From Candidatus Omnitrophota bacterium (GTDB lineage Bacteria > Omnitrophota > Gorgyraeia > Tantalellales > Tantalellaceae), in contig JAJRVD010000053.1 of the NCBI GenBank assembly GCA_024277375.1, forward strand, positions 8,680-72,679: a stretch of DNA of 64,000 bases. Reading direction: 5' to 3'. The position numbers and the translations under genes are program-made. Positions 4,180-35,588 of this stretch are shown piece after piece; within the stretch, counting starts at the first letter, position 1, and every line of letters starts with the position of its first letter. The notes under the pieces were generated by a model, which did not search any database, was not told the DNA's origin, and saw only the letters and a list, made by a program, of their open reading frames with translations.

Positions 4180-4198
4180 GAGGGCTAAAGGAGTGGTA

Positions 4199-4795: not shown

Positions 4796-4811
4796 GAGGA
4801 AAGTGTTTGCG

Positions 4812-8711: not shown

Positions 8712-8823
8712 AAACTGAAAAAGTGTCAAAGCGTCATAGTGGTACATAATCACAAACTGTCATCCTGAGAGAGGGAGGAACTAAGTGACGACCGAGCCGA
8801 AGGATCTCAAAAAGGTTAGGCTT

Positions 8824-9549
8824 ATGAATGAAAAAGTATTCTTATCGATAATTATTCCCGCTTATAATGAGGAAAGTAATATTTCAGGTACACTTTCTGA
8901 GGTAGCGGAATATCTGGAAAGCAGGAACTTTTCCTGTGAAGTGATCGTTATCGATGACGGGTCTAAAGACGCTACAGTCGAGATAGCCCGCCAATTCGGG
9001 GGGAAGATCCCGAACCTGAAAATTATCGAAAGTTCGCCGAACGGTGGAAAAGGGTATGTTCTTAAAAAAGCAATATTCCAGTCTAATGGCGAATATGTAA
9101 TGTTCATGGACGCCGATAGTTCCGTTTCCGTGAGTGAATTAGATAACTTTTTGCCGCTCTTGGAGGAGGAAACAGATGTTTATATAGCTTCAAGAAGGGT
9201 TCCAGGAGCAAAAGTGTCTATGCCTCAGAGTCGTGAAATATTGGGAAAGGTATATATCTTCTTTTCGAAGGTGTTGCTCGGCATAGAAGTAAACGACATA
9301 AACTGTGGATTTAAGTTGTTCAAGGGCAAGGTCGCGAAAGAAGTGTTTTCCAAGCAGATCATGGGAGACTGGAGTTTTGACGCGGAAGTTCTGTTTATAG
9401 TCGGAAAATACGGATATAAAATAAAAGAAATTCCTGTAGAATGGATCTATAAGGATACTTCGAAGGTGCGTCCGATCCGGGACGGGATAAATAGTTTTAT
9501 TAGTCTGGTCAAGATAAGGGTCAATAACCTAAGCGGTAAATATGAGTAA
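8824..9549 (+). CDS. GT2 polyprenyl-phosphate sugar synthase (GtrB/CsbB/DPM1-like)
   Basis: SIIIPAYNEE, VIVIDDGSKD and FMDADSS (DxD) motifs. Confidence 0.75.
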   Translation: MNEKVFLSIIIPAYNEESNISGTLSEVAEYLESRNFSCEVIVIDDGSKDATVEIARQFGGKIPNLKIIESSPNGGKGYVLKKAIFQSNGEYVMFMDADSSVSVSELDNFLPLLEEETDVYIASRRVPGAKVSMPQSREILGKVYIFFSKVLLGIEVNDINCGFKLFKGKVAKEVFSKQIMGDWSFDAEVLFIVGKYGYKIKEIPVEWIYKDTSKVRPIRDGINSFISLVKIRVNNLSGKYE

Positions 9550-10261
9550 TAACGTGTTCATATCTATAATAATTCCGGCATACAACGAGGAGTAAAGAAT
9601 AGGCGCTACACTGGCGCATATATACGACTATCTTAAGTCTAAAGACTTTAAATATGAAGTGATTGTCGTTGATGACGGTAGCGATGACGATACTGTGCGG
9701 AAGGCGAAAGAAAGCGATATATTCAAAACAGGTGCTCTTAGCGTTGTTAGGAACGAGACCAATAGCGGCAAAGGATTCGCGGTTAAGGCGGGTATCTTAA
9801 AAAGTGCCGGTAAATATGTGCTGTTCAGTGACGCGGATTCCTCGACCCCGATCGATGAGTTGGATAAGATGCTTGAGTATATCGGGGATGATGTCGATAT
9901 AGTTATAGGGTCACGTTCTGTTCCTGACTCGGATGTCAGAGTTCCGCAGCCATGGCATAGAGAGAAGATGGGTAAGATATTCAACTTTTGCGTTAGAGCG
10001 CTTCTCGTAGATAGTTTTAAGGATACACAGTGTGGCTTCAAACTTTTTAAGGGGGATATTGCCCGGGAAATAGCTCGTCTTTCAGAAATTAAGGGGTTTT
10101 GTTTTGACGTAGAGATGTTGTATATCGCTGGACAGAAGGGGTATAGGGTTAGGGAAGTCGGTGTGGTGTGGAATAATTCTATTCAGAGTAAAGTGAAGAT
10201 ACTAAACAGTTCTTTAAGCATGTTTCTTGACCTCTTGAGGATAAAAAAAATACACAAATGA
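9542..10261 (+). pseudogene. Second GtrB-like GT2 paralogue interrupted by an in-frame TAA at 9593..9595 (or a sequencing error)
   Basis: ATG 9542 gives MSNNVFISIIIPAYNEE, then TAA. The same frame continues RIGATLAHIYDYLKSKDFKYEVIVVDDGSDDD... to 10261. The track shows only the downstream GTG-initiated piece 9659..10261. Confidence 0.6.
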
Positions 10262-15960: not shown

Positions 15961-16034
15961 GGGTTAGTTCATTATATGACGAAAGGCTTGTGATCCAGTA
16001 GTTACAAGTTTTAAATATGCAGAAGGAGGATCGG

Positions 16035-17039
16035 ATGGTTGGCCGTAAAAATAATTTCAATAAATTCCGTTTTAATGTATTTACTGTTCTGCTTGTTTTG
16101 GCTGTAGTATCGGCAGGTATTTTGGGGGTTTTTAAGATAAGCAAAAAAATTATCAATTTCACTGAAAGTTTCAGAGATATGCGTAGCCGCATGAAAGTTA
16201 TATATGATATGACCAGAGACAATAGATCTTTGCTGGTGCCTCTTGAAGAAGTTAAAAAATCGGATCATTCTTTTGTTTTTGTGGGACATATTTATCCTTT
16301 TAACGGTGTTAACGTAGACAAGGAGACTATTGCTTTTCTTCTAAATAAGATGAATAGTGTTGATCCTCAAAGGGTTATTTTTGGGGGAGATAGCGCTCTA
16401 AGGAGCACGGAGAACAGCCTCCGGTATCTAAAAGACAAAGTTATGGGGGCGCTCAATTCGGAAACTCGGTTCGTATTGGGCAACCATGATCGTTTAAAAG
16501 CTTCGGGCAAAAGAAAAAGAGATTATAACGATCTTTTTAGCAAGGTCTACTATAAGCCGTATTATTTCGAAGATGTCGATGGTGTGAGGTTGATCTATCT
16601 GAATAGTACTATTTCCTTCGGGAAATACGGGTTGGATGAGGCCCAACTGAAATTCTTGAAAAACGCTTTAGAGCGCGGAAAATATAAATTCGCGTTAGTT
16701 TTTCTGCATCATGCTCTTTGGTTGGGAAGATCACCACATGTGAATGAGCAGTATACCAATGCTCAAGAATTGAAAGAAACTTGGATGGAGAAGGTACTGC
16801 CTATTCTGAAGAGTGGGAAGGTTAAGGCTGTTTTTTCGGGAGACGGCGGTGTAAACAAAACTACTTTTCTTCAAGATATCGAGGGGATCCCTCATTATCT
16901 GACGGGTTGGTCATTCAATTTGGATGAAAGGCCGGCGGATTTTTTGAGGATAGATGTAGAGGGGACTGTGGTTAATGTTTACCGATACATTATGCTCAAC
17001 AAACGCCTTATACGTATGCCGATATATGATAAACCATGA
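16035..17039 (+). CDS. Membrane-anchored metallophosphoesterase (calcineurin-like)
   Basis: N-terminal TM. GGDS, GNHD and FLHHALW motifs. RBS agaaggagga before ATG 16035. Confidence 0.6.
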   Translation: MVGRKNNFNKFRFNVFTVLLVLAVVSAGILGVFKISKKIINFTESFRDMRSRMKVIYDMTRDNRSLLVPLEEVKKSDHSFVFVGHIYPFNGVNVDKETIAFLLNKMNSVDPQRVIFGGDSALRSTENSLRYLKDKVMGALNSETRFVLGNHDRLKASGKRKRDYNDLFSKVYYKPYYFEDVDGVRLIYLNSTISFGKYGLDEAQLKFLKNALERGKYKFALVFLHHALWLGRSPHVNEQYTNAQELKETWMEKVLPILKSGKVKAVFSGDGGVNKTTFLQDIEGIPHYLTGWSFNLDERPADFLRIDVEGTVVNVYRYIMLNKRLIRMPIYDKP

Positions 17040-17127
17040 CATTTTTCGGGTTAGCACTTATCTGGGGTGACATTGTATCCCCGTAGTGATATAATGCCTT
17101 GTTCATAACGGCAAAAAAGGAAATTAT

Positions 17128-19881
17128 ATGAAATTACCAAATAAATCCATATATGTGGTTGGGTTCGTCAATATAGTCATAACTTTTCTTTTGGTGCTTT
17201 TTGTTGTAAATCTCTTGTTCTCAGGGGTTCTGGGGGAAGATATGGCGAGACGGCTAAGGAATGAGTATATTGAGCCGATATTAAGGAAGATAGATGTATC
17301 TTACCTTCTTTTTAACCAGACAGTTTCAAAACTTCCTGTATATGAGATCACGATATCGGCTAAAAAATACAGAAAACTACTCGCTGCCAGGGACGAAAAA
17401 CTTAAGGACAGGTTTTATAAGTTCCCTTACGTTAAAGCAAAGTTCGCCTACGAGGGTAAGGAATATGATGTTAAGGTGAAACTGAGAGGCCTTTTCCCTA
17501 ACCACTGGATGGAGGACAAGAAGTCCTGGCGGGTTAAATTTCCCAAAGAAAATCTTTTCAATGGCAAAAGACGTATCAATCTGATAATCCCGGCCGATAG
17601 GGACTACATTAAGGAATATCTGGCCTACTACACCGCACGTAAATTCGGTATCATTGCACCTGAAAGCAGGTTCGTTATTTTGAGTATCAATGGTCGTTCG
17701 CAGGGCGTTTATTTTGAAGTGGAACAGATGGGAAAAGAGTTCTTGGCTCATAATTTTCAGTCTGAGGATACGGATCTATATTACGGTGAAGACAGCAGTT
17801 TTGAGACGAATATATTCCAAAATTTAGTCTCCTGGGAAAAAATACGATCAGGGAAAAATTCTGACTTTGAAAATTACGCGAATATTGATAAATTGCTGGA
17901 CATAATGAGCCAGAGTGATGAAGAGTTTTATAGGCAGATCCCACAACTAGTGAACGTAGAAAAGATATTAAAATGGAACGCGAACTCAATGCTTTATTTC
18001 GATTATCATCAGGATAACAGACATAATGTTCGATTGTTCTTTTCGGCGGTGACGGGTCTATTTGAGCCGCTCATATGGGATTGTTCTCATCCGCTCTTTG
18101 ACTCGAAGATAGATCGGCTTTATAATGATCTGGTTACGCGCATTTTGAAGGATCCGGCTTATTTGTACAGGCGCAATGAAATATTGTGGAACTATGTCGG
18201 CGATCCTGATAATCTTGCTGATGATCTTAAGTTCTTCGACCGTACGTACGGTGACATCAAAATGGCTTTTCTGGCGGATTCATTGAAAAACATATCCAAT
18301 ACGCGTTTTGTGTACGTAATGCGCCGGATCCGAGAGGACGTAGGAAAATATTACAGTGAGATAAAGAAACAATTGAATAAAAGTTGGGCACATGCCGTAA
18401 TTTACTACAATACTCCTGATCCCGCGGTGTTCGCTCGTCTCAAGATATCAAGCGGAGGGTTTAGCGCCTCAAGTCTTGACCGAATAGAGGTTGACGACAC
18501 CGGGGAGTATGAACTTTATTATGACGCGGATAGTGACGGAGTTTTTGATGGAACGGACACCTTTTTGGGGAAATTGGAATTGAAAGACAATAGTGTTGTC
18601 CTGGATGATATCGATTTTACGCTTTTTTCGGGTAAGATCGTAAATGAGGGGTTTCTTTTACCAAAATCGGAGGATTATATATTCTTTTTGATAAGTCGAG
18701 AAGGGATCTCGACGGGGTATCGTGGCATAAAATTAAAAGCAAGTAATGCCGTGACAGAGGAAGATATTAAACCCGGAATAAGGGCTGTGGATGATTCTAA
18801 TTTTAAATATTTCGACCTAATATCTTCTTCTTCCGGGGAGTTCGTGAAACGATATCCATTTGTGAAGGTGGATCAGGGGAAAGGCCATTTTGTGGTGACT
18901 CAAGGTGAATATTTTATTGATGATATCGTAATCGTTCCGAGGGGGATAACGCTTAAAATAGATCCCGGAGTTGTTCTTAATTTCGCGCCGAAAGTTTCGT
19001 TTATTTCTTATGGAAAAGTTTTGGCGCGCGGCATAAAAGAGCTTCCCGTAGTCTTTAAAGCGAAGGATCAGGGAGAAAACTGGGGCATTTTTTCTGTGAT
19101 AGGGGACGGAGCGAATGGGAGTGTGTTTTCTAATGTTCAGGTAAAAGGCGCTTCGGAAGAGTTTATGAATGGGGTTCGATTTAGCGGTGCTTTGGCGATA
19201 CACGGAGCGGAAGCTCTCGTTGCGGATTGCGTTTTTGAGGACAATAACGGCGATGATGCTCTTAATGTCAAAGGATCCAAGGCAGAGATCGTTTCTTCTG
19301 TTTTTAGAAATAACAAAGCAGACGCGATAGATCTTGATTTTGTTCCCGGCGGTGTCGTCGGTGAGTGCCTTTTTGAAGAGAATGGGAATGATTACATAGA
19401 TATGGGGTCGTCATCCGTGATCATCAGGAATAATACTATAATCGACAGCGGGGATAAGGGTATTAGTTGCGGGGAGAAGTCGAGTTCCGTTATTTTTAAT
19501 AATCGCGTTTCAGGGTGTAATATAGGGGTTGCCGCAAAAGATAATTCAGAGGTTATTGTGATCAATTGCGACATTGTAAATAACAAAAAGGGTATTTCTT
19601 CCTACATGAAGAAACCTTTATGGCAAAAAGCCGGTACCGTTCAGGTATACAATTCTATTTTAGACAATTATCAGGAGTTGGAAATACTTGATAGCTCGGG
19701 AACAATAACAGTAGAGAATTCTTTTATCTCAGACGAAAAGTATCAGGATAAAAAGAAAAAGGTCTGGTTCGGGAAAGGGCGGCAAACGGAGAGGATGAAA
19801 GATCTTCCGGCGGATACTGACATTGTTATGAAATATTTTCCTGATGTGGATAAGAGAAAATTACGCTTGGGAGTGTTTTGA
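17128..19881 (+). CDS. CotH kinase-family protein with N-terminal TM anchor and C-terminal right-handed parallel beta-helix
   Basis: CotH core: KKSWRVKF ... INLIIPADRDYIKEYLAYYTARKFGIIAPESRFVILSINGRSQGVYFEVEQMGKEFL ... DLYYGE ... WD. The C-terminal ~300 aa contain repeated beta-helix rungs (NNGDDALNV, NKADAIDLD, NGNDYIDMG, GDKGISCG, NIGVAAKDNS). Confidence 0.75.
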   Translation: MKLPNKSIYVVGFVNIVITFLLVLFVVNLLFSGVLGEDMARRLRNEYIEPILRKIDVSYLLFNQTVSKLPVYEITISAKKYRKLLAARDEKLKDRFYKFPYVKAKFAYEGKEYDVKVKLRGLFPNHWMEDKKSWRVKFPKENLFNGKRRINLIIPADRDYIKEYLAYYTARKFGIIAPESRFVILSINGRSQGVYFEVEQMGKEFLAHNFQSEDTDLYYGEDSSFETNIFQNLVSWEKIRSGKNSDFENYANIDKLLDIMSQSDEEFYRQIPQLVNVEKILKWNANSMLYFDYHQDNRHNVRLFFSAVTGLFEPLIWDCSHPLFDSKIDRLYNDLVTRILKDPAYLYRRNEILWNYVGDPDNLADDLKFFDRTYGDIKMAFLADSLKNISNTRFVYVMRRIREDVGKYYSEIKKQLNKSWAHAVIYYNTPDPAVFARLKISSGGFSASSLDRIEVDDTGEYELYYDADSDGVFDGTDTFLGKLELKDNSVVLDDIDFTLFSGKIVNEGFLLPKSEDYIFFLISREGISTGYRGIKLKASNAVTEEDIKPGIRAVDDSNFKYFDLISSSSGEFVKRYPFVKVDQGKGHFVVTQGEYFIDDIVIVPRGITLKIDPGVVLNFAPKVSFISYGKVLARGIKELPVVFKAKDQGENWGIFSVIGDGANGSVFSNVQVKGASEEFMNGVRFSGALAIHGAEALVADCVFEDNNGDDALNVKGSKAEIVSSVFRNNKADAIDLDFVPGGVVGECLFEENGNDYIDMGSSSVIIRNNTIIDSGDKGISCGEKSSSVIFNNRVSGCNIGVAAKDNSEVIVINCDIVNNKKGISSYMKKPLWQKAGTVQVYNSILDNYQELEILDSSGTITVENSFISDEKYQDKKKKVWFGKGRQTERMKDLPADTDIVMKYFPDVDKRKLRLGVF

Positions 19882-19882
19882 G

Positions 19883-20617
19883 ATGGTTGAGAAATTCCAC
19901 TTTCACAGGTTTGAGTTTAAGTATTTGGTAGATAGAAAGACGAAAGAAAATCTGTTGAAAGATCTCCTTGACTTTATGGATTTTGATATACCTGGTAGTT
20001 CAAATAATGCTTACTACGATGTTTTGAATTTGTATATGGATTCGCAGGATCTGAGATTCTACAGGGAAAAGATAGATGGCCTTATGTTCAGGAGAAAAAT
20101 GAGGTTTCGTTTTTACACTTCAAATCCAGAGGAGAACACGCACGTATTTGCCGAGATAAAAAGAAAAAGAAATATGACGATCATAAAGGACAGGATAAGA
20201 TTGTCTTATGAAGACGCGCTGAACATCGCTATGAGGTCTTTTTCTGGGATCGTGAGGAAGCTGGACAGTTTCGGGGCTCAGGAAAGAGATATTCTGTCGG
20301 AATTTTTGTTTGAGGTTATGAAATGCAGGTTGTCCAGCAGATTATGGGTGAATTATAAAAGAACAGCGCTTGCCGCTAAAAAATTTCCCAGATTACGTGT
20401 TACATTTGATGATGATATTTTCTCTACCATAGCGAGGGATGGATTTGGATTTAACCTTAAGAGAAACCCTCGCCGGATATTTTCGAATAGATCGATCTTT
20501 GAGGTTAAATACAATGGTACGCTCCCGTACTGGATCCATGGACTAATACGCAAATACCAGTTGTTCAGGGAACCGATATCGAAATATTGTAATGCCGTAG
20601 AAAATCTTTTGTATTGA
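19883..20617 (+). CDS. VTC-domain (CYTH-like, polyphosphate-polymerase-type) protein
   Basis: Size (~245 aa), basic-rich composition and an N-terminal FEFKY strand resemble bacterial VTC-domain proteins. Start/stop overlap with the CotH gene. Called from memory of the family. Confidence 0.5.
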   Translation: MVEKFHFHRFEFKYLVDRKTKENLLKDLLDFMDFDIPGSSNNAYYDVLNLYMDSQDLRFYREKIDGLMFRRKMRFRFYTSNPEENTHVFAEIKRKRNMTIIKDRIRLSYEDALNIAMRSFSGIVRKLDSFGAQERDILSEFLFEVMKCRLSSRLWVNYKRTALAAKKFPRLRVTFDDDIFSTIARDGFGFNLKRNPRRIFSNRSIFEVKYNGTLPYWIHGLIRKYQLFREPISKYCNAVENLLY

Positions 20618-20707: not shown

Positions 20708-21391
20708 ATGTTTGATGATTTAGGCAACTTGTTCACTAGTAAGACGGACTATGCTCCGGCGGCAATATTTGTAAATCTGTTAATAGCTTTTTTGTTAAGT
20801 GTTGTAGTGGCACTTTCGTATAAAAAGAATCATAAAGGATTATCATATTCCCAGTCTTTGATATTTTCTTTTATTCTGTTAAGCGTTACGACCTCATGCG
20901 TTATAATGGTTATCGGCAATAGTTTGGCCAGGGCGTTCGGACTGGTCGGGGCGCTGTCCATTATAAGGTTCAGGACCGTTGTTAAGGATACGAAGGATAC
21001 GGCATATGTGTTTTTCGCCCTTGCCATAGGAATGGCATCAGGGACAGGAGCCTATACTATCGCTGTATTGTCTACGCTAATGTTCGTCGCGGTCGATACT
21101 ATACTTACCATGACCAATTTTGGGTCTATACGAAAACATGAGTATATAGTCAGGTTCACATTTAATCCCCAGACCCAGACAGATGATGCCTACAAAGACG
21201 TATTCGATAGGTTTTTGAATTATTCACATCTGGTGGACATGACTGTTATGAGTAACGATGCGATAGAGTACAGTTACAATATCCAGCTTAAAAAAGAGAT
21301 GCAGCTTAATGTGTTTGTAGATGAGTTGAAACGGGTCGAAGGGTTGACCGCCATTAATGTTGTTACCGCTAAAATGGATGTAGAATACTGA
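20708..21391 (+). CDS. Polytopic membrane protein, DUF4956-like
   Basis: 227 aa with 4-5 TM segments and a conserved-looking ARAFGLVGALSIIRFRT...KDT..Y.FFALAIGMASGTGAY core. Position is after CotH and VTC. Confidence 0.45.
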   Translation: MFDDLGNLFTSKTDYAPAAIFVNLLIAFLLSVVVALSYKKNHKGLSYSQSLIFSFILLSVTTSCVIMVIGNSLARAFGLVGALSIIRFRTVVKDTKDTAYVFFALAIGMASGTGAYTIAVLSTLMFVAVDTILTMTNFGSIRKHEYIVRFTFNPQTQTDDAYKDVFDRFLNYSHLVDMTVMSNDAIEYSYNIQLKKEMQLNVFVDELKRVEGLTAINVVTAKMDVEY

Positions 21392-21483: not shown

Positions 21484-22928
21484 ATGTTATTTAATTCCTT
21501 GGGGTTTTTGGTATTTTTTCCAATAACGGTGATCGCTTATTTCATGATAGCTCAGCGTTATCGGTGGATTTTCTTGCTTGCGGCAAGTTATTATTTCTAT
21601 ATGTGCTGGAAGCCGGAATACATTGTATTGATCATAGCGTCGACATTGATCGATTATTTCGCCGGGATAAAAATGGGGGAGATACAGGTCAAGGCGAAGC
21701 GTAAGAAGTTTATGGCGCTAAGCTTGGTCACGAATTTAGGGTTGTTATTCGCGTTTAAATATTTTAATTTTTTTAACGATTCCGCCAGGACTATTTTTGA
21801 CCATTTCAATATATTCTATGGTGTCCCGGCGTTCAAAGTACTCCTTCCCGTAGGTATATCTTTTTATACTTTTCAGACCTTGAGTTACTCTTTTGATGTT
21901 TACAGAGGAAAAAAGGATCCGGAGAAGCATCTGGGTATCTTTGCCCTGTATGTCTCCTTTTCCCGCAGCTGGTGGCCGGGCCTATCGAAAGATCAACGCA
22001 TCTTCTGCCACAATTCCGTCAAACGCATAAATTCGAATATCGAAGAGTTACAGACGGAATAAAACTGATGATGTGGGGGTTTTTTAAAAAGATCGTGATC
22101 GCCGATAGGTTGGCTGTAATGGTCAATCATGTGTATAACTCTCCGTCTGATTATAACGGCATATCTCTTATAGTAGCTACTTATTTTTTTGCTTTTCAAA
22201 TATATTGCGATTTTTCAGGATATTCTGATATCGCTATAGGAGCCGCCCAGGTTTTCGGTTTTGACCTGATGAATAATTTTAACCGCCCATATTTCTCGAA
22301 AAACATAGTTGAGTTCTGGAAACGATGGCACATATCGCTTTCGACCTGGTTCAGGGATTATTTCTATATACCGTTAGGCGGTAACAGGGTATCTAAATAC
22401 AGGTGGGCGGTGAATATACTGGTAGTGTTTATCGTAAGCGGCCTGTGGCACGGGGCCAATTGGACTTTTGTGCTATGGGGAATGTTGCACGGGCTGTATT
22501 TTTTGGTATCCTCTAAGACCAAGGCGGCACGGGCTAAAATATCTAGTTTTTTTCGTTTAAACAGATACCCTCTGATCCGGAAATATTTGCAAGTCTTTAT
22601 AACTTTTCATCTAGTCCTGTTTGCCTGGATATTTTTCAGGGCTAACTCTTTACCTGATGCTCTATATATAGTTGGGCATTTGTTCTCAAGCGATCCTTCT
22701 AAGATAAATAGCCTATGGGTGGGGTTGGATAGAACTGAATTCATTATCGCGATATCTTCTATACTTTTTATGGAATTTGTTCATATAATACAGCGGCACA
22801 GCGGGATCAGGCACCTTTTGGCCGAAAGACCCGCATGGCTCAGGTGGACGGTTTATTTTCTTTTGCTGATAAGTATCTTTTTGTTTGGAGAATTCGGTAA
22901 AAACGAATTTATTTATTTTCAGTTTTAA
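21484..22928 (+). pseudogene. MBOAT-family O-acyltransferase (AlgI/DltB-like) with a -1 frameshift in a T-run near 21958..21961 (or a sequencing error)
   Basis: ORF 21484..22062 carries the MBOAT N-terminal half (ISFYTFQTLSYSFDVYRG ... FALYVSF). ORF 21972..22928 continues in another frame with the expected FPQLVAGPIER ... LMMWGFFKKIVIADRLA. Five T's would restore VSFFPQLVAGP. Confidence 0.7.
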
Positions 22929-22937
22929 TGAATGGTT

Positions 22938-24998
22938 TTATGCGTGAACTACCTGGCGAAAAAGATCTCGTTCGTTCATGTATTCAACCATTTTTCTGAG
23001 TGTTTGATTGATGTCTTCCGCTTTGTACTGTGCGTAAAGCTTTGCCAGTTTTGATTTTTGCTCTTCGGGAAAAAGAAAATCAATTTCGGTTCCGGATGTG
23101 AGGTATTCGGACAAGGTCTTCTGGTAAGAGTCTTCCTTCCATTTTAAAATATCGTATTCGAAGGCTTTCTTTTTTGATACGGCTAGATTTTCGAATCCTT
23201 TTGAAAAATCCACGAATCTGTTCTTTGTGTATTTAATTATCTCATTGAGCTGTGTTTTGCGGGCATTGTCATATTTATCATGTTCTTTCAATAAGATAGA
23301 AGTTGTTTCAAAAAGATATTGATCGAAAACTTCCCTGCATTCTAAGAGTATTTTGTAGGTGTACTTGTAATTTAGCTTTCCGAACCCGCCCTTGCAGATC
23401 AATTTGAAATTTTCAGGTTTTGAATAGTGGTCAACAAGATCTTTTTCAGAGTCAAACCATTCGTCGTGCGCGTCGGTCATGAAATTGTCAAAAAGTTCTT
23501 TTATCAGAGGAGGGGCCGACGAAGTATTATCAATGACGGATAAGATCAGATCCATTGGATTTATATGTTCGTTTTTTAAAAAGTGAAGCAATTCTTCGTA
23601 GTATTTATAGTTCCAGAGGAACTGTATGAGAAAATGAATAGGGCGAAAATAAAGGATATCATCTGTTGTCATCGAGTCGGTCTCGAGAACCATTTCTTCA
23701 TGTTCGATCGAAACGATATCATCATATTTTCCGAATCCACCGTCGATAAGTCTGTATTTTGTTTTAATACCAAATTTTTTACGGTTTTCCCGGGTGTTTA
23801 ACGTGCTCCCGCCTATCATCCTGAGGTTGTAACAGAAAATAGCCGGAGCGTTAAAATCGAATAGATCTTTGAGTCCGTCACGGTGGGATGCTTTAGTTTC
23901 TCCAGGTAGCGCAAGGATGAGTTCCGACGATGTTGAGATGTTCTTGCTTCTGAAGTAATCTTGTAGGTCCCTGAATTCGTCAAGGCTAAGATTAGTTCTT
24001 TTAATGTTTTTTGTGACCAGAGGATCTAATGATTGGAAAGATCCGAAAGTACTTGTTACACCGAAGATATCTTTCAGTATCTCCACCATTTTCATCATAC
24101 GTTTGGTACCGCTTTTTGCCCAGGCTACGAATATGTTGCGGGGGTAGCCATGTTTGTTCATTGTGGTCCTGATGAATTTTGCGATTTCGACATCTCTTTC
24201 CAGTATTCCGAAATTCGCGTCACCCATCATAAGCATATCTGTGTTTTTGATCCTTTTTGCTATATATTCAATTTCCCGTGTTATCCTTTCCAGGGAAAAT
24301 TGGTAGATCTTTTTTTGTGTGGATCTTCCCCAGGCGCAATATGTGCAGAGATAAGGGCATCCTCTATTCGTCTCGATCAGCGGATTCAGGTTGTCATCAA
24401 AGAACTCATCCATAATACCCTCAAGGTAGGGGGAGGGTATCTCGTTGATGTTTTCTATGAAGTCATTTTTGTCTGAGGTGACGGAGATGTTGTTGTTCCT
24501 GTCGTAAAATACACAATTTTGTACAGGCGAACTTTTCATATCTTTGATCGAGCCTGAGTCGAAAAATCTTTCCAGTATGTTTGTGAAACCTTTTTCACCC
24601 TGATCTATAACATGGAAGTCCAAGTCAGGACGGGTTTTTAAGTAAGAACTGTATTCATCGGGGGCGGATGGAAGGTCCGGCCCTCCAAAGACGGTAACAA
24701 TGTCCTTGGATAATGATTTGACCCAGGAGGTTATCTTGCGGTTTATATCCAGATTCCATGTATAGTTACTCATGCCGATAATGTGGGGGGTTTGCTCTTT
24801 GATGGCATCAAGGAGGTCCTGTGGATACTTGAATAACTTTATATGAAGTTTTTCGCCGTATATCTTTTTGGCGTAAGCGGTTATATAGCCTATGTTGATG
24901 GGAAAAGTATGGGGTCCCTTGGCAGTATAGTTATGGACCAGGTCCGCAAGGTATATAACGCATTTCTTATTGTTCTTGGGAATTAACATAACCTTCAC
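22938..24998 (-). CDS. Cobalamin (B12)-binding radical SAM protein (class B)
   Basis: N-terminal B12-binding-like domain. CPYLCTYC (Cx3Cx2C). 686 aa with a long C-terminal extension. It is the only large minus-strand gene. Confidence 0.75.
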   Translation of the reverse strand: MKVMLIPKNNKKCVIYLADLVHNYTAKGPHTFPINIGYITAYAKKIYGEKLHIKLFKYPQDLLDAIKEQTPHIIGMSNYTWNLDINRKITSWVKSLSKDIVTVFGGPDLPSAPDEYSSYLKTRPDLDFHVIDQGEKGFTNILERFFDSGSIKDMKSSPVQNCVFYDRNNNISVTSDKNDFIENINEIPSPYLEGIMDEFFDDNLNPLIETNRGCPYLCTYCAWGRSTQKKIYQFSLERITREIEYIAKRIKNTDMLMMGDANFGILERDVEIAKFIRTTMNKHGYPRNIFVAWAKSGTKRMMKMVEILKDIFGVTSTFGSFQSLDPLVTKNIKRTNLSLDEFRDLQDYFRSKNISTSSELILALPGETKASHRDGLKDLFDFNAPAIFCYNLRMIGGSTLNTRENRKKFGIKTKYRLIDGGFGKYDDIVSIEHEEMVLETDSMTTDDILYFRPIHFLIQFLWNYKYYEELLHFLKNEHINPMDLILSVIDNTSSAPPLIKELFDNFMTDAHDEWFDSEKDLVDHYSKPENFKLICKGGFGKLNYKYTYKILLECREVFDQYLFETTSILLKEHDKYDNARKTQLNEIIKYTKNRFVDFSKGFENLAVSKKKAFEYDILKWKEDSYQKTLSEYLTSGTEIDFLFPEEQKSKLAKLYAQYKAEDINQTLRKMVEYMNERDLFRQVVHA

Positions 24999-26447: not shown

Positions 26448-27530
26448 TGCTCCGAATGTCGGAGAATTGGAAAAGAAATGTGTATGCGGTACGATAGATT
26501 CCGGTTTTGTCTCCACATTTGGGCCGAATGTAACGAAATTCGAGGAAAAATTTGCCGAATATCTCGGTTCACAAAAGCTGTCTCCACCCAAAGTGGAACA
26601 GCGGCACTCCATGCGGCGCTTTATGAGCTAGGAATAGGTGAGGGGGACGAAGTGATCGTTCCCGCTCTGACTTTTGTGGCAACAGTAAATCCCGTTATGT
26701 ATGTAGGCGCGCGTCCCGTTTTTGCGGATGTGAATATCAATACATGGAATATAGATCCCTCGGCGATAGAGAAAAATATCACTCCAAAGACAAGGGCGAT
26801 AATTCCTGTTCATCTTTATGGGAATCCTTGTGAAATGGATAAGATAATGGAGATAGCAAAAAAGCATGGTCTTTTTGTTATAGAAGATGCTACAGAAAGC
26901 CTGGGCGCTCAGTACGCCGGAAGGTATACGGGGACTTATGGTGATTATGGTTGTTTTAGTTTTAACGGCAATAAGACTATTACGACAGGTGGAGGTGGGA
27001 TGATAGTTGGAAACGATCCGGAAGGCATGGATCATCTGAAGTTTTTAGTAAATCAAGCGAGAGATGAGACCAGAGGGTACTTCCATCCGGAAGTGGGGTT
27101 TAACTACAGAATGACAAATTTGGAAGCCTCCATGGGTCTGGCACAGATGGAGCGTTTGGAAGAGTTGTCTAACAAAAAAGAACGTATACACGCGATATAT
27201 CAAGAAGAACTTGCAGGCGAGAGCTGTATAGATCTGCAGCTGGAATATGAAGGGGGTGTAAGTTCCTGGTGGTTTAATTGTATTTATTTCACCGATGGAA
27301 TGGATCTGGCGGATGTTATGAGACGCTTAAAAAATGAAGGTATTCCGACGCGACGGGTATTTATGCCTATAAACCAGTTTCCTCCGTATGAACGATGTGG
27401 ATCCGGGGATCTCGAAAATTCTCAGAAAATTTACGAAAGAGGCTTGTGTCTGCCGAGTTCTACGTTGAACCGGGAGGAAGACATAGGGTTCGCGTGTAGG
27501 AAAATTAAAGAGCTAATAGCTATTGGCTGA
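26431..27530 (+). pseudogene. DegT/DnrJ/EryC1 aminotransferase (LegC/PseC-like position) with a frameshift in an A-run near 26573..26576 (or a sequencing error)
   Basis: ATG 26431 gives MRLELDAPNVGELEKK ... FAEYLGSQK, then falls out of frame. ORF 26478..27530 continues KAVSTQSGTAALHAALYELGIGEGDEVIVP. One extra A would fuse them. Confidence 0.7.
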
Positions 27531-27542
27531 TGAGAGGTTGAT

Positions 27543-28199
27543 ATGTCTGAGAAAATAATATTAGTTGGCGGCGGTGGACATTGTAAAGTGGTGATAGACG
27601 CTATAAAAAAAGCCGGTATTTTTGAGGTAGAAGGGGTGCTTGATCCAGCGCAGACAGATGATATCCTCGGAGTGAAAATTTGTGGGAACGACAATAAGAT
27701 GAAAGAATTATTTGAAAAAGGCATAAAGAACGCGTTTATCACTGTGGGTTCCACCGGTGATTGTTCCTTGAGAAAAAAGTTATACAAAAAAGCTAAAGAT
27801 ATTGGATTCGAGTTCCCTGTGATAATTCATCCTCGCGCGGAAATAGCGGACGATGTCGGGGGCGAGATTGGTTGCGGAACGTTTATCGCCGCGTCAGCAA
27901 CAGTAAATCCGGGAACGAAAATAGGTGAGAATGTTATTGTCAATACTTCTGCTTCGGTTGATCATGATTGCGTTATAGGCGATTTTGCTCATATTGCTCC
28001 GGGTGCGGTGCTAAGCGGAGGAGTTGAAGTTGGTGAAGAAGCGCATATTGGAACAGGGGCCAACATTACCCAGTACGCGCGGATAGAGAAGGGCGAACTT
28101 GTTAAAGCCGGGAGTCTGGTTTTTAAGAGTAATACGCGAAAAAAAACGTATGTGTGGCCTATGCCTGCAAACGAAGAAAGTGAAAATAATGTCTTATGA
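27543..28199 (+). CDS. NeuD/PglD-family hexapeptide-repeat N-acetyltransferase
   Basis: KIILVGGGGHCKVVIDAI N-terminal Rossmann-like domain plus left-handed beta-helix hexapeptide repeats. Confidence 0.7.
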   Translation: MSEKIILVGGGGHCKVVIDAIKKAGIFEVEGVLDPAQTDDILGVKICGNDNKMKELFEKGIKNAFITVGSTGDCSLRKKLYKKAKDIGFEFPVIIHPRAEIADDVGGEIGCGTFIAASATVNPGTKIGENVIVNTSASVDHDCVIGDFAHIAPGAVLSGGVEVGEEAHIGTGANITQYARIEKGELVKAGSLVFKSNTRKKTYVWPMPANEESENNVL

Positions 28200-29199
28200 A
28201 AAAGTTTTTATAATAGCCGAGGCCGGAGTTAATCATAACGGTAGTTTGGAGACCGCTAGAAAGATGATAGACGCGGCTTCTGAGGCCGGTGTGGACGCGG
28301 TGAAATTCCAAACGTTTCGTGCTGAGAACATAGCGAGCGCTAACGCTCCTAAAGCGTATTATCAGAAAAATACTACTTGCGAGGATGAATCACAGCTTGA
28401 AATGTTAAAAAAACTGGAATTGGACGAAGACGCACATAAAGACCTTAAGGTATATTGTGAGAAAAAAGATGTTATGTTCCTTTCAACTCCGTTCGATCTC
28501 GAAAGTGTGGATATGCTTGAAGATATGGGTCTAGCCCTGTTTAAAGTGCCTTCGGGCGAGATCACGAATCTGCCATACCTGAGAAAGATAGGGGCGTTAA
28601 GGAAGAAGATAATATTGTCCAGTGGGATGTCGAACCTTGATGAAATAGAAGACGCTATTATGGTGCTTGTTGCCGCGGGAACGCGGAAGGAAGACATTAC
28701 GGTGTTGCAATGTAATACCGAGTATCCGACGCCGTATGAAGATGTGAATTTACGCGCGATGTCCACGATAAGAGAATCCTTTGGTGTTGATGTCGGATAT
28801 TCCGACCATACTCTTGGAATAGATATCGTCTCTGCCGCGGTAGGCTTGGGCGCCAGCGTGATCGAGAAACATTTCACACTTGATCGTCAAATGGAAGGCC
28901 CTGATCACGCGGCTTCATTGGAACCTGAGCAGCTTAGGAGGATGGTAGAAGTAATAAGGAACACGGAACTAGCTATGGGTGATGGAATTAAAAAACCGTC
29001 ATCTTCGGAATTTAAAAACATAACGGCAGTTCGGAAAAGTATAGTCGCGGCATGTCCGATCGCTGTCGATGAGGTTTTCACCGAAGATAATCTTACGGTT
29101 AAAAGACCGGCAACGGGTATAAGTCCCGTGGAGTGGGATAATGTTCTTGGAAAGTCCGCAAAGCGGGATTTTGGTCGAGATGAGGCGATTGAGCTATGA
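28189..29199 (+). CDS. NeuB-family nonulosonic acid synthase (PEP-condensing; LegI/PseI/NeuB-like)
   Basis: FIIAEAGVNHNGSLETARKMIDAASEAGVDAVKFQTF is the NeuB signature, with a C-terminal SAF/antifreeze-like domain. Confidence 0.8.
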   Translation: MSYEKVFIIAEAGVNHNGSLETARKMIDAASEAGVDAVKFQTFRAENIASANAPKAYYQKNTTCEDESQLEMLKKLELDEDAHKDLKVYCEKKDVMFLSTPFDLESVDMLEDMGLALFKVPSGEITNLPYLRKIGALRKKIILSSGMSNLDEIEDAIMVLVAAGTRKEDITVLQCNTEYPTPYEDVNLRAMSTIRESFGVDVGYSDHTLGIDIVSAAVGLGASVIEKHFTLDRQMEGPDHAASLEPEQLRRMVEVIRNTELAMGDGIKKPSSSEFKNITAVRKSIVAACPIAVDEVFTEDNLTVKRPATGISPVEWDNVLGKSAKRDFGRDEAIEL

Positions 29200-30080
29200 G
29201 AATAGTATTTGTCGGTACTGTTGAGTTCAGCCGTAGAATGTTAGAAAAATTGATATCCATGGAAGCTTTAATAGTGGGTGTCATAACAAAGAAGACGTCA
29301 GAGGCTAACGCTGATTTTTCGGATCTTTCCGGATTATGTGAAGACAAGGATATACCGTACAAGTATGTTACGGATATAAATTCACCGGATAGTGAGGAGT
29401 GGATAAAGGATAGAGAGCCCGATATTATTTTATGCTTAGGTTTTTCTCAAATATTGGAAGAAAAGATATTGAAAATCGCTCCTATGGGGGTGGTGGGGTA
29501 TCACCCGGCAAAATTACCGCAAAATCGTGGCAGACATCCGATAATTTGGGCGCTGGTCCTGGGGCTTAAGAAGACGGCATCTACTTTCTTTTTTATGGAT
29601 AAAGGTGCTGATAGCGGGGATATATTAAGCCAGGAGGAGATCGAGATCGATACCGAGGACGACGCGGGTACGCTCTACGAAAAGGTCGTGCAGACAGCCT
29701 TGAGTCAACTCAATGATATTTTGCCGCAATTGGAAGGGAAGACGTTTGATCTGATATCACAGAATGGCGTGGAAACGAATTATTGGAGAAAACGTAATAT
29801 GGAAGACGGACGCGTTGATTTTAGGATGACCGCGAGGGCGGTTTGCAACCTGATTAGAGGACTGACCCGGCCATATGTGGGCGCTCATATCAGATATAAT
29901 AACGCGGACATTAAGGTCTGGAAGGCAAAAGAAATAATAACAGACTTCGAGAATTGTGAATATGGCAAGGTTTTGGATGTAAGCGGCGGGCAAATACTAG
30001 TGAAGTGTATGGAGAACGCTGTTCTTTTTATGAAACATGAGTTTAACAAGTTACCCGAAACGGGGGATTATTTGATATGA
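29196..30080 (+). CDS. Formyltransferase (Fmt/ArnA-N-like); candidate amino-sugar N-formyltransferase
   Basis: Formyl_trans_N pattern: VVGYHPAKLPQNRGRHPIIWAL ... DKGADSGDIL. Confidence 0.65.
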   Translation: MRIVFVGTVEFSRRMLEKLISMEALIVGVITKKTSEANADFSDLSGLCEDKDIPYKYVTDINSPDSEEWIKDREPDIILCLGFSQILEEKILKIAPMGVVGYHPAKLPQNRGRHPIIWALVLGLKKTASTFFFMDKGADSGDILSQEEIEIDTEDDAGTLYEKVVQTALSQLNDILPQLEGKTFDLISQNGVETNYWRKRNMEDGRVDFRMTARAVCNLIRGLTRPYVGAHIRYNNADIKVWKAKEIITDFENCEYGKVLDVSGGQILVKCMENAVLFMKHEFNKLPETGDYLI

Positions 30081-30745
30081 AAAATGTTCTGGTATTGGCC
30101 GCTCATCCTGATGATGAGACTTTGGGGTGTGGAGGAACGTTGCTAAGGCACAAGGCGAATGGAGACCGTATCCACTGGCTTATCGCTACGGGTATGTCGA
30201 AAGAGGAGGGGTTCGCGTCGGCGGATATATCTCGAAGAGATAAAGAGATCGAGAAAGTAAGGGGACTGTATGCTTTTGATGGGGTCAGCAAACTAGATAT
30301 TCCTACGACAAAAGTGGATGATGTCCCCATTAATGAGTTGGTGGAAAAGATCTCAAAGGTGTTTCGGGAAGTTGAACCGGAGATATTGTATTTGCCTTTC
30401 AGGGGAGATGTTCATAGTGATCATCGTATGCTTTTTGACGCGGCGTATAGTTGTACGAAAACATTCCGATATCCGTTCATAAAAAAGATCCTTATGATGG
30501 AAATAATAAGTGAAACGGAATTCGTTCCGGGATTCAAGGATGCGGTATTTATCCCGAATTATTTCGTGAACATAGGTAGTTTTCTTGAAAAAAAGATCGA
30601 GATAATGAAGACCTTTGAAAGTGAGCTGGGGGAACAACCTTTTCCGAGAAGTCTTGAGAACATTAGAGCGCTGGCGACGTTCAGAGGAGCAATGTCGGGT
30701 TGTGATCACGCGGAAAGTTTTATGATCTTGAAGGAGATATCGTGA
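30077..30745 (+). CDS. PIG-L/LmbE-family N-deacetylase
   Basis: VLAAHPDDETLGCGGT motif. Confidence 0.75.
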   Translation: MKNVLVLAAHPDDETLGCGGTLLRHKANGDRIHWLIATGMSKEEGFASADISRRDKEIEKVRGLYAFDGVSKLDIPTTKVDDVPINELVEKISKVFREVEPEILYLPFRGDVHSDHRMLFDAAYSCTKTFRYPFIKKILMMEIISETEFVPGFKDAVFIPNYFVNIGSFLEKKIEIMKTFESELGEQPFPRSLENIRALATFRGAMSGCDHAESFMILKEIS

Positions 30746-33271: not shown

Positions 33272-33288
33272 TAAAGGAGTGGGGCATC

Positions 33289-34524: not shown

Positions 34525-34526
34525 GT

Positions 34527-35585: not shown

Positions 35586-35588
35586 ACT

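What the first reader, a model, noticed from the sequence alone, without database searches (positions are those of the whole stretch)
17128..19881. CotH kinase with membrane anchor and pectate-lyase-like beta-helix tail
CotH proteins are best known as Bacillus spore-coat kinases. Here the CotH domain (residues ~100-430) is preceded by one N-terminal TM helix, so it is probably extracytoplasmic. It is followed by about 300 aa of right-handed parallel beta-helix rungs of the kind used by polysaccharide lyases, tailspikes and adhesins for glycan binding. A kinase fused to a glycan-binding module in a glycan locus suggests phosphorylation of a polysaccharide, or of a glycan-bound protein, at the cell surface.
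Basis: partly seen in the sequence, partly recalled or inferred. Interest (0 to 1): 0.6.

Follow-up and report, generated by a model that had tools for sequence, protein, structure and literature searches.

The report
Surface CotH-like enzyme tied to polyphosphate genes
The gene is real and encodes a membrane-anchored, outward-facing CotH-like domain fused to a beta-helix, but its constant partners in many phyla are a yeast-type polyphosphate polymerase and a membrane protein, which suggests an unstudied system that sends phosphate polymer out to a surface enzyme.

Summary
The AF2 model has pLDDT 89.6.

1. The conserved context is not the glycan genes. It is the next two genes: a Vtc4-like polyphosphate-polymerase domain (19883-20617) and DUF4956 (20708-21391). 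Both lie within 6 kb in 64 of 80 related genome loci, from Omnitrophota, CPR, Planctomycetota, Chloroflexota, Gammaproteobacteria and archaea.
2. The canonical catalytic Asp of CotH is replaced by a near-invariant His. The Mg-binding Asn and Asp and the adenine-stacking aromatics are kept.
3. The beta-helix is the most conserved part, with a virtually invariant patch of Asp, Lys and Glu. It is therefore unlikely to be a passive glycan-binding tail.

Best model (inferred, about 0.4): VTC makes polyP at the inner face, DUF4956 passes it across the membrane, and the ecto-enzyme uses or processes it on surface polymers.

The triad is known only as uncharacterised accessory genes of Gram-positive Pel loci. 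The beta-helix fusion, the His variant and the breadth (over 2000 clusters at 50% identity) are new. I rate it a new variant of a known kind, interest 0.66.

The parts
17128..19881 (+). CotH-like/beta-helix ecto-protein, 917 aa. TM anchor at residues 6-32 (nt 17143-17223). CotH-like domain about 65-416 (nt 17320-18375). Beta-sandwich with a DxNxNGxxDxxD Ca-type loop, 420-555 (nt 18385-18792). Right-handed beta-helix 588-870 (nt 18889-19737). C-terminal tail 871-917.
18007..18084 (+). Catalytic-loop region of the CotH-like domain: H294 (in place of the canonical Asp), N300, W317, D318.
   Evidence: Profile alignment to 5jd9. Conservation in 73 and in 146 relatives.
19255..19614 (+). Virtually invariant acidic/basic patch on six successive beta-helix rungs: D710, N713, K715, D732, D735, D737, D755, D758, D776, K777, S780, G782, E783, K804, D805, K828.
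   Evidence: Strand register taken from the AF2 secondary structure.
19883..20617 (+). VTC-domain protein, a Vtc4-like triphosphate-tunnel polyphosphate polymerase domain with no TM segment. The likely start is the ATG at 19883, one nt after the CotH stop codon, with GGAG 9 nt upstream. The mechanical ORF start is 19844.
   Evidence: Pfam VTC E 1.2e-36, profile positions 2-234 of 235. Profile against the PDB: yeast Vtc4 3g3q, E 7.2e-15. Tunnel residues at least 96% conserved in 76 sequences. Start site.
20708..21391 (+). DUF4956 multi-pass membrane protein (MgtC-like TM region plus a C-terminal soluble domain) with an invariant S-x2-RFR-x3-KD-x2-D motif.
   Evidence: Pfam DUF4956 E 8e-17. TM segments. 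Motif conservation in 73 sequences.
16017..17039 (+). TM-anchored calcineurin-like metallophosphoesterase. It is a recurrent but not constant accessory of the module.
   Evidence: Pfam Metallophos E 7.4e-6, 27 bits against a cutoff of 21.5. TM segment 21-39. Also adjacent in L007, L009, L073, L090 and L091, and fused to the CotH domain in L077.
17067..17095 (+). Promoter-like site (GTGACA, 17 nt spacer, TG-TATAAT; 11 of 12 matches) in the 88-nt gap upstream of the CotH gene.
   Evidence: This is weak evidence: the number of such sites in the region is no higher than in shuffled sequence. No terminator-like site lies between the CotH, VTC and DUF4956 genes.

Best explanation
The ORF is the extracytoplasmic component of a conserved three-gene, trans-membrane module. 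The proposed mechanism has three steps.

1. The soluble VTC-domain protein, a Vtc4-type triphosphate-tunnel enzyme, makes polyphosphate from ATP at the cytoplasmic face.
2. The DUF4956 membrane protein passes the chain across the membrane, by analogy with the yeast VTC complex, which couples synthesis to translocation.
3. The membrane-anchored CotH-like/beta-helix protein receives it outside. There the nucleotide- and Mg-binding CotH-like site (with His in place of the usual Asp base) and the Asp/Lys-lined beta-helix groove use or tailor the polymer. The most likely use is transfer of phosphoryl groups to a surface glycan or glycoprotein made by the surrounding locus.

The TM-anchored metallophosphoesterase next door would trim polyP, as the lumenal metallophosphatase Ppn2 does in yeast.

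What is shown: the architecture, the folds, the residue conservation and the gene linkage. What is inferred: polyP synthesis by the bacterial VTC protein, export through DUF4956, the identity of the donor, and the acceptor.
For: Gene linkage:
- The triad is present in all six Pfam-annotated contigs of relatives with 20-37% identity, in two gene orders.
- Of 80 genome loci from more than 10 phyla, 64 have both VTC and DUF4956 within 6 kb, 69 have at least one, and in 59 the two genes are adjacent. Several of the 11 misses are truncated contigs.
- All five loci found by seeding with VTC carry the CotH/beta-helix gene and DUF4956.
- In the window, the VTC ATG lies 1 nt after the CotH stop codon.

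VTC partner:
- It aligns to yeast Vtc4 (E 7e-15).
- The residues aligned to Vtc4 K200, the R-x-R, E-x-K, Y-x-R and E-x-K motifs and SK are at least 96% conserved.

DUF4956: it has an invariant RFR...KD..D motif.

Topology:
- A TM anchor with a positive-inside bias is conserved.
- The sandwich domain has a DxNxNG Ca-type loop typical of extracellular proteins.
- The Pel-locus homologue SIR_1594 is predicted to be secreted (PMC12345266).
- There is no ATP outside the cell, so an exported phosphoanhydride donor solves a real problem (inference).

Literature:
- Yeast VTC couples synthesis to translocation (PMC9911596; PMC10657179).
- Ppn2 is a lumenal PPP-superfamily metallophosphatase (PMC7381174).
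- A metallophosphoesterase recurs next to the module and is fused to the CotH domain in L077.
- Deleting the CotH and DUF4956 homologues alters Pel level and aggregation in S. intermedius (PMC12345266).

Conservation argument: the glycan genes vary while the beta-helix patch is invariant. This fits a ligand common to all loci, such as metal-bound polyP.
Against: - No bacterial VTC-domain protein has been shown to make polyP, and none of the papers found describes one.
- DUF4956 shows no detectable similarity to the yeast VTC channel subunits, so its channel role is pure inference.
- The conserved adenine-sandwich aromatics (Y/F218 in 130/143 sequences, W/Y317 in 127/145) imply that a nucleotide, not bare polyP, occupies the CotH site.
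- The invariant beta-helix patch is mostly acidic. That is typical of Ca-dependent lyases and epimerases and is not obviously a polyanion-binding surface unless metals bridge the contact.
- The deletion of SIR_1593 (VTC) had no reported aggregation phenotype.
- Topology rests on hydropathy and charge counts only.
Confidence: 0.4

Rival explanations
1. The beta-helix is the real catalyst. It would be a Ca-dependent lyase, epimerase or hydrolase acting on an acidic surface polymer such as a uronic-acid, teichoic-like or phosphoglycan. The CotH-like domain would be a pseudokinase-type nucleotide sensor or scaffold. VTC and DUF4956 would supply or regulate something else.
For: The beta-helix carries the strictest conservation: D710, D732, D735 and D737 in 144/144 sequences, and E783, K804 and D805 in at least 142 of 143-144. 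The CotH site drifts more: H294 is 91% and D318 88% (Asn in 14). The nearest folds are AlgG/AlgE4 epimerases and PL6, PL9 and RbmB lyases, which act on acidic polymers with Asp, Glu and Lys sites. The canonical catalytic Asp is lost.
Against: TM-scores to those enzymes are only 0.3-0.54, and no family motif (DPHD of AlgG, the GH28 motifs) is recognisable (and direct reading of the sequence). An invariant site sitting in loci whose glycan genes differ is hard to reconcile with a glycan-specific enzyme. N300, D318, E199, the KKS motif and the adenine aromatics stay conserved at 88-100%, which argues for a working nucleotide/Mg site. This model does not explain the tight VTC/DUF4956 linkage.
Confidence: 0.25
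2. One reading: an ATP-dependent surface kinase whose beta-helix binds a glycan, and which phosphorylates the polysaccharide or a glycan-bound protein. VTC and DUF4956 would serve general phosphate homeostasis.
For: The CotH fold with the Mg-binding Asn and Asp and the adenine-sandwich residues is kept. The neighbourhood encodes glycan synthesis. Glycan kinases exist in the related Fam20 and secretory-pathway kinase group (my own knowledge).
Against: No ATP source is known outside the cytoplasmic membrane. The catalytic Asp is replaced by His, and D228Q inactivates B. subtilis CotH. The beta-helix patch is invariant across loci with different glycans. The strict linkage to VTC and DUF4956 is left unexplained.
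Confidence: 0.15
3. Regulatory protein kinase, as proposed for Pel loci: the CotH-like protein phosphorylates components of the polysaccharide synthesis or export machinery to control output.
For: This was suggested for the Gram-positive Pel accessory cotH (PMC7112168). Deleting the CotH and DUF4956 homologues changes the amount of Pel.
Against: The machinery differs between loci, and some loci have no evident glycan genes (L006). The large invariant beta-helix is unexplained. The donor problem is the same as for the ATP-kinase model.
Confidence: 0.1

Closest known systems
Bacillus subtilis / B. cereus CotH spore-coat Ser/Thr kinase (PDB 5jd9, 5jda)
   Same: Same fold (TM-score 0.82 over 371 columns). 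Shared motifs are RG, KKS, ING...Y...E, the Mg-binding Asn and Asp (PKA N171 and D184 equivalents) and the adenine-stacking Trp.
   Different: The catalytic Asp (PKA D166, Bsu D228) is replaced by a conserved His. This protein is membrane-anchored and faces outward, whereas CotH works in the mother-cell cytoplasm. It has extra beta-sandwich and beta-helix domains. There is no CotB/CotG-type substrate, and the gene is linked to VTC and DUF4956.
cotH - polyphosphate-polymerase (VTC) - DUF4956 accessory genes of Gram-positive Pel loci (S. intermedius SIR_1594/1593/1592; Whitfield et al. 2020, PMC7112168; mBio 2025, PMC12345266)
   Same: The same three families sit side by side next to exopolysaccharide genes, and the CotH protein is predicted to be secreted. 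A Clostridiaceae example was seen here (L088). No mechanism is known.
   Different: In those loci CotH carries FN3 or other tails, not a beta-helix. The one example examined here (P0050) keeps the catalytic Asp. Those authors found the triad only at Pel loci, whereas this window has no pel genes and the triad spans Omnitrophota, CPR, Planctomycetota, Chloroflexota, Proteobacteria and archaea.
Yeast VTC complex (Vtc4 catalytic tunnel plus a TM channel) with the lumenal polyphosphatases Ppn1 and Ppn2
   Same: The VTC domain is homologous to Vtc4 with the tunnel residues conserved. It is paired with a membrane protein, and a TM-anchored metallophosphoesterase lies on the far side, as Ppn2 does.
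   Different: There is no SPX domain. The membrane partner is DUF4956, not Vtc1-type TM helices. A kinase-like/beta-helix ecto-enzyme has no yeast counterpart. No activity has been demonstrated.
Right-handed beta-helix carbohydrate-active enzymes (AlgG/AlgE4 C5-epimerases, PL6 and PL9 lyases, RbmB) and NosD
   Same: Same fold class and PbH1-type rungs, with acidic and basic residues on one sheet.
   Different: Low TM-scores (0.3-0.54) and 9-14% identity. None of the catalytic motifs of those families is recognisable. The domain is fused to a kinase-like domain.

Membership tests
CotH family (Pfam PF08757) | Sequence match above Pfam's gathering score | tested here: met
   91.9 bits against a cutoff of 23.8, E 6.9e-26. 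Only profile positions 12-211 of 322 are matched.
CotH family (Pfam PF08757) | Atypical protein-kinase-like fold of B. cereus CotH | tested here: met
   AF2 model against 5jd9: E 1.4e-17, TM-score to target 0.82, rmsd 3.4 A, 371 columns. Family profile against 5jd9: E 2.3e-40.
CotH kinase (active enzyme as characterised in Bacillus) | Catalytic Asp (Bsu D228, PKA D166), five residues before the Mg-binding Asn | tested here: not met
   The aligned position is H294 in the profile alignment or Q295 in the pairwise alignment. His is found in 70/73 and 132/145 relatives. No acidic residue holds a conserved position in the loop, and 19 of 73 sequences have none at all.
CotH kinase (active enzyme as characterised in Bacillus) | Mg-binding Asn and Asp (PKA N171, D184; Bsu D251) | tested here: met
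   N300 in 73/73 and 141/145 sequences. D318 in 68/73 and 126/144.
CotH kinase (active enzyme as characterised in Bacillus) | Adenine sandwiched by Tyr142 and Trp245 (B. cereus numbering, PMC12189002) | tested here: inconclusive
   W317 aligns with Trp245 (W or Y in 127/145). The conserved aromatic is Y/F218 (130/143), one position before the residue aligned to Tyr142, which is Y219 and is not conserved.
CotH kinase (active enzyme as characterised in Bacillus) | [quoted passage not shown] | not testable with these tools
   This needs biochemistry.
Right-handed parallel beta-helix (Pfam Beta_helix PF13229 / PbH1 repeats) | Sequence match and stacked three-strand rungs | tested here: met
   PF13229: 75.7 bits against a cutoff of 25.9. 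The AF2 domain model has pLDDT 94.3 and regular rungs over full-length residues 588-870. Foldseek returns beta-helix enzymes.
Polysaccharide lyase or C5-epimerase families (PL6, PL9, AlgG/AlgE) | Family-specific catalytic motifs and close structural match | tested here: inconclusive
CotH - VTC - DUF4956 triad | VTC-domain and DUF4956 genes adjacent to the CotH gene on the same strand | tested here: met
   Window genes at 19883-20617 and 20708-21391. Both genes are present in 64 of 80 related loci.
Vtc4-type polyphosphate polymerase (the neighbouring gene) | Triphosphate-tunnel fold with conserved basic and acidic tunnel residues, including the Vtc4 K200 equivalent | tested here: met
   Profile against 3g3q: E 7.2e-15. 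K26, R-x-K-x-R-x-R, E-x-K, Y-x-R, E-x-K and SK are at least 96% conserved. Which of these residues are catalytic in Vtc4 comes from my own memory of the yeast work.
Vtc4-type polyphosphate polymerase (the neighbouring gene) | PolyP synthesis from ATP, coupled to membrane translocation | not testable with these tools
   No bacterial member has been characterised in the papers searched.

The most novel reading that the evidence does not exclude
Bacteria and some archaea have a VTC-type machine, previously regarded as eukaryotic, that synthesises polyphosphate and threads it across the cytoplasmic membrane through DUF4956. Outside, a His-variant CotH-like/beta-helix enzyme uses it as the phosphoryl or energy donor for chemistry in a compartment that has no ATP. 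The result would be phosphorylated or polyP-decorated surface polymers in Omnitrophota, CPR bacteria and Pel-producing Firmicutes.
Probability: 0.3. Interest if true: 0.9.

Novelty: new variant of a known kind. Interest (0 to 1): 0.66.

Why it matters
No phosphoryl donor is known for a kinase-like enzyme working outside the bacterial cytoplasmic membrane, where there is no ATP. A polyP-export route would provide one.

The reviews of polyphosphate biology read here describe bacterial synthesis by PPK1 and survey VTC only in eukaryotes (PMC10657179). This study finds a VTC-domain gene with intact tunnel residues, locked to a membrane protein and an ecto-enzyme. The CotH/beta-helix family has more than 2000 clusters at 50% identity, many of them in uncultivated, small-genome lineages (CPR, Omnitrophota).

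The same triad modulates Pel-dependent aggregation in Streptococcus intermedius, and no mechanism is known there. A testable mechanism could therefore carry over to biofilm biology.

The Asp-to-His change at the catalytic base adds a case to the growing list of kinase-fold enzymes with non-canonical chemistry.

Tried and rejected
- Nguyen et al. 2016 (the CotH structure paper) is not held. The catalytic-residue mapping therefore rests on the D224/D247 spacing in 5jd9, on PMC7821199 and on PMC12189002.
- The search for related loci rejected the 29-sequence alignment and the 6-sequence VTC alignment. Smaller alignments worked.
- A word-indexed profile search meant to sample CotH broadly gave only 14 hits. 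I therefore could not survey how common the His variant is across all of PF08757.
- A search of plasmids with the B. cereus CotH fragment gave 3 hits, all from Bacillales.
- A single-sequence PDB search with VTC or DUF4956 found nothing useful. Only the VTC profile reached Vtc4.
- The gene downstream of the CotH-only relative P0039 is not a split beta-helix.
- The unannotated gene upstream of P0031 is not the metallophosphoesterase.
- No ORF fuses VTC with DUF4956.
- No pel, ppk or ppx genes are in the window.
- The source organism could not be named. The protein cluster carries no name, its contig is not in the look-up, and the closest relative is a Ca. Omnitrophota MAG at 61% identity.
Full report
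**1. Observation.**
ORF 17128-19881 (+) encodes 917 aa. Pfam finds CotH (residues 130-319, E 6.9e-26), Beta_helix (693-826, E 4.1e-21) and NosD (706-857, E 4.3e-10). The only PDB sequence relative is B. cereus CotH 5jd9 (E 1.3e-16; E 2.3e-40 with a family profile, covering chain residues 3-356).

An AF2 model built on 29 homologues has pLDDT 89.6. Foldseek gives 5jd9 at TM-score 0.82 over 371 columns, followed by beta-helix enzymes. A separate model of residues 556-917 has pLDDT 94.3. Its best matches are AlgE4/AlgG epimerases, PL6 and PL9 lyases, NosD and RbmB, but TM-scores are only 0.3-0.54. The fold class is confirmed; no enzyme family can be assigned.

One hydrophobic segment (8-26) has Lys residues on the N-terminal side and net negative charge after it. 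Of 73 relatives, 71 have such a segment, and in 57 of those the N-terminal side is the more positive. The sandwich domain has a conserved D466-x-[ND]-x-[ND]-G-x-[LF]-D-x-x-D477 loop, a Ca-binding pattern common in extracellular proteins. I conclude that the protein is anchored N-in, with the bulk outside the membrane. This is an inference from sequence.

**2. Surroundings.**
The 64-kb window is almost entirely glycan biosynthesis on the + strand:
- a carbamoyltransferase and PAPS synthesis genes;
- a nonulosonic-acid pathway;
- GT2 and GT4 glycosyltransferases, three GT-C/PMT_2 proteins, YfhO and MBOAT;
- a flippase and an LtaS-like sulfatase;
- a PEP-mutase phosphonate set and radical-SAM/B12 enzymes.

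There are no pel, ppk or ppx genes.

The immediate neighbours are different in kind. Upstream is a TM-anchored metallophosphoesterase (16017-17039). Downstream are a VTC-domain protein (Pfam E 1.2e-36 over the whole profile) and DUF4956 (E 8e-17). The VTC ATG at 19883 lies one nucleotide after the CotH stop codon, with GGAG 9 nt upstream. No terminator-like site separates the three genes. The best promoter-like site lies just upstream of the CotH gene.

**3. The conserved unit is a triad.**
Homologues with the same CotH plus beta-helix architecture exist at 20-61% identity. In every annotated contig examined, VTC and DUF4956 are adjacent. The contigs were Omnitrophica P0005, P0012, P0016 (gene order DUF4956-VTC-CotH), P0029, P0031 and P0035.

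A scan of one genome per GTDB species found 549 relatives. The best 80 come from Omnitrophota (closest, 61% identity), Planctomycetota, many CPR lineages, Gammaproteobacteria, Chloroflexota, Gemmatimonadota, Myxococcota and two archaeal MAGs. I built HMMs from the window and first loci and searched them against six-frame ORFs. They found both VTC and DUF4956 in 64 of the 80 loci and at least one in 69. The two genes were adjacent to each other in 59. Several of the 11 misses are short or cut contigs; one of them, L023, turned out to carry DUF4956 and the end of a VTC gene just beyond the fetched flank (L094).

Other glycan genes are far less constant: GT4 in 23 loci, SDR in 20, GT2 in 17, radical SAM in 9 and GT-C in 3. 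These counts come from crude HMMs.

A reciprocal scan seeded with VTC gave only five loci (two on contigs already sampled), and all of them carry the CotH/beta-helix gene and DUF4956.

The metallophosphoesterase recurs in L007, L009, L073, L090 and L091, and is fused to the CotH domain in a Levybacteria ORF (L077).

phmmer against 1.84 billion cluster representatives gives 2003 clusters at E <= 1e-30. The top 150 all match both the CotH and the beta-helix parts, apart from a few truncated sequences.

**4. The CotH-like site.**
B. subtilis D228 and D251 are the residues whose mutation kills activity (PMC7821199). CotH keeps equivalents of PKA D166, N171 and D184, and sandwiches adenine between Tyr142 and Trp245 (PMC12189002). 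In the 5jd9 chain these map to D224, N229, D247, Y143 and W246.

The family profile aligns H294 to D224 with posterior about 0.7. The pairwise alignment shifts this by one residue to Q295. In either register no Asp is conserved there. His is present in 70/73 genome-derived relatives and in 132/145 independent representatives. The loop between His and Asn varies in length, and 19 of 73 sequences contain no acidic residue in it.

The other features are kept:
- N300 in 73/73 and 141/145 sequences;
- D318 in 68/73 and 126/144;
- E199, the RG and KKS motifs and N188;
- Y/F218 in 130/143 and W/Y317 in 127/145.

The site therefore looks functional and nucleotide/Mg-binding, but with a different residue at the catalytic-base position. 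A Clostridiaceae CotH that also sits next to VTC-DUF4956 keeps the Asp (P0050 and L088). The His variant is therefore characteristic of this beta-helix clade and its close CotH-only relatives, not of the triad as a whole. I could not survey all of PF08757.

**5. The beta-helix.**
The strictest conservation in the whole protein lies here. D710, D732, D735 and D737 are present in 144/144 sequences; D755 and D758 in 143/144. D776 is present in 142, K777 in 140, S780 in 143, G782 in 144, E783 in 143 and K804 in 143 of 144; D805 in 142/143 and K828 in 139/143.

From the strand register of the model, N713/K715, D735/D737, D758, S780, K804 and the flanking E783 and D805 fall on the solvent side of one sheet over five rungs. 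This register argument is my reading; no coordinates were available. Such a patch is what an active or metal site looks like, not a variable glycan-binding surface. Its invariance across loci with different glycan genes suggests a ligand common to all of them.

**6. The partners.**
A profile of bacterial VTC proteins hits the yeast Vtc4 catalytic domain (3g3q, E 7.2e-15) ahead of the Vtc2 and Vtc3 paralogues. The following are at least 96% conserved in 76 sequences:
- the residue aligned to Vtc4 K200 (K26);
- the R-x-K-x-R-x-R strand;
- the E-x-K, Y-x-R, R...D, E-x-K and S-K motifs.

Which of these are catalytic in Vtc4 is from my memory of the yeast work.

DUF4956 is a multi-pass membrane protein with an invariant S-x2-R-F-R-x3-K-D-x2-D motif.

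**7. Mechanism.**
[quoted passage not shown] A lumenal PPP-family metallophosphatase, Ppn2, then cuts it (PMC7381174).

The bacterial module has a Vtc4-like tunnel enzyme with no TM segment, an obligate membrane partner, an outward-facing enzyme and, often, an outward-facing metallophosphoesterase. The simplest reading is a synthesis-export-use line for polyP. Because the cell exterior has no ATP, polyP would be the phosphoryl donor for the ecto-enzyme or the substrate it processes.

I put this at about 0.4. That the three genes work together I put at about 0.85.

The main rival (0.25) is that the beta-helix is a lyase- or epimerase-like catalyst and the CotH-like domain a sensor or scaffold.

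The conserved adenine pocket argues against bare polyP in the CotH site. A bound nucleotide recharged from polyP is conceivable but is pure speculation.

**8. What is known.**
The cotH, polyphosphate-polymerase and DUF4956 set was noticed as accessory genes of Gram-positive Pel loci (PMC7112168). In S. intermedius, deleting the CotH and DUF4956 homologues reduces aggregation and alters Pel level. The authors found the triad only at Pel loci and offered no mechanism (PMC12345266). Only five held papers mention DUF4956. A search pairing CotH with CPR and Omnitrophota terms listed no paper on CotH in those lineages.

Three things are new here:
- the beta-helix fusion with its invariant patch;
- the conserved Asp-to-His change;
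- the demonstration that the triad is a widespread, self-contained module outside Pel loci.

**9. Verdict.**
I rate it a new variant of a known but uncharacterised kind, with interest 0.66. The most novel reading still open is bacterial VTC-type polyP export fuelling extracytoplasmic phosphotransfer: probability about 0.3, interest about 0.9 if true.

Noticed in passing
window 21484-22928 (+): The MBOAT (AlgI/DltB-like) gene is split into two overlapping ORFs in different frames (21484-22062 and 21972-22928). The conserved FPQLVAGPIER stretch is read in the second frame from about 21960. This is probably a frameshift, from either a pseudogene or an assembly error.
   Followed up: partly
window 46715-49452 (+), also 42875-43627 and 51598-52287: A phosphonate set: a PEP mutase fused to a nucleotidyltransferase domain and a TPP-dependent phosphonopyruvate-decarboxylase-like gene, together with two CDP-alcohol phosphatidyltransferases. 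This suggests that the surface glycans carry phosphonate or phospho-alcohol groups.
   Followed up: no
window 3004-6242 (+) and 39674-41899 (+): ATP-sulfurylase and APS kinase (PAPS synthesis) lie next to a phosphodiesterase/sulfatase-superfamily protein, and a large membrane-anchored LtaS-like sulfatase-family protein lies further on. Sulfated or phosphoglycerol-type decorations are likely.
   Followed up: no
window 26478-36320 (+): A complete-looking nonulosonic-acid (legionaminic/pseudaminic-type) pathway: DegT, PglD-like acetyltransferase, NeuB, formyltransferase, PIG-L deacetylase, 2-epimerase, a HisF/HisH-like pair and a CMP-transferase. A CotH-only His-type relative (P0039, L089) also sits in a NeuB locus.
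   Followed up: no
window 1-64000: GC skew is strongly positive throughout (0.10-0.31). Every large gene is on the + strand except one radical-SAM/B12 gene (22938-24998, - strand), which lies directly downstream of the module.
   Followed up: no
L077 2625-4976: In a Levybacteria (CPR) MAG, a single ORF joins a metallophosphoesterase domain (residues 41-202) to the CotH-like domain (292-668). This Rosetta-stone link joins the upstream gene of the window to the CotH domain.
   Followed up: partly
L003 6073-7851 and 8001-10703: A CotH-only paralogue (P0028, 592 aa, His-type loop) lies in tandem directly upstream of the CotH/beta-helix gene, followed by VTC and DUF4956.
   Followed up: no
L091 836-3091: A family member lacks the central beta-sandwich: the family HMM matches positions 19-451 and then 608-887. 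The sandwich with its Ca-type loop is therefore dispensable in some lineages. That locus has the gene order CotH/beta-helix, VTC, DUF4956, metallophosphoesterase.
   Followed up: no
window 8785-10261 (+): Two consecutive GT2 ORFs. The second (9659-10261, GTG start) matches the GT2 profile only from position 30, so its true start, or a frameshift, may lie upstream.
   Followed up: no
L063 and L067: Relatives of the CotH/beta-helix gene, with VTC and DUF4956 nearby, occur in MAGs labelled as archaeal (an uncultured archaeon and a Micrarchaeota). This is either horizontal transfer into DPANN-type archaea or a binning error.
   Followed up: no
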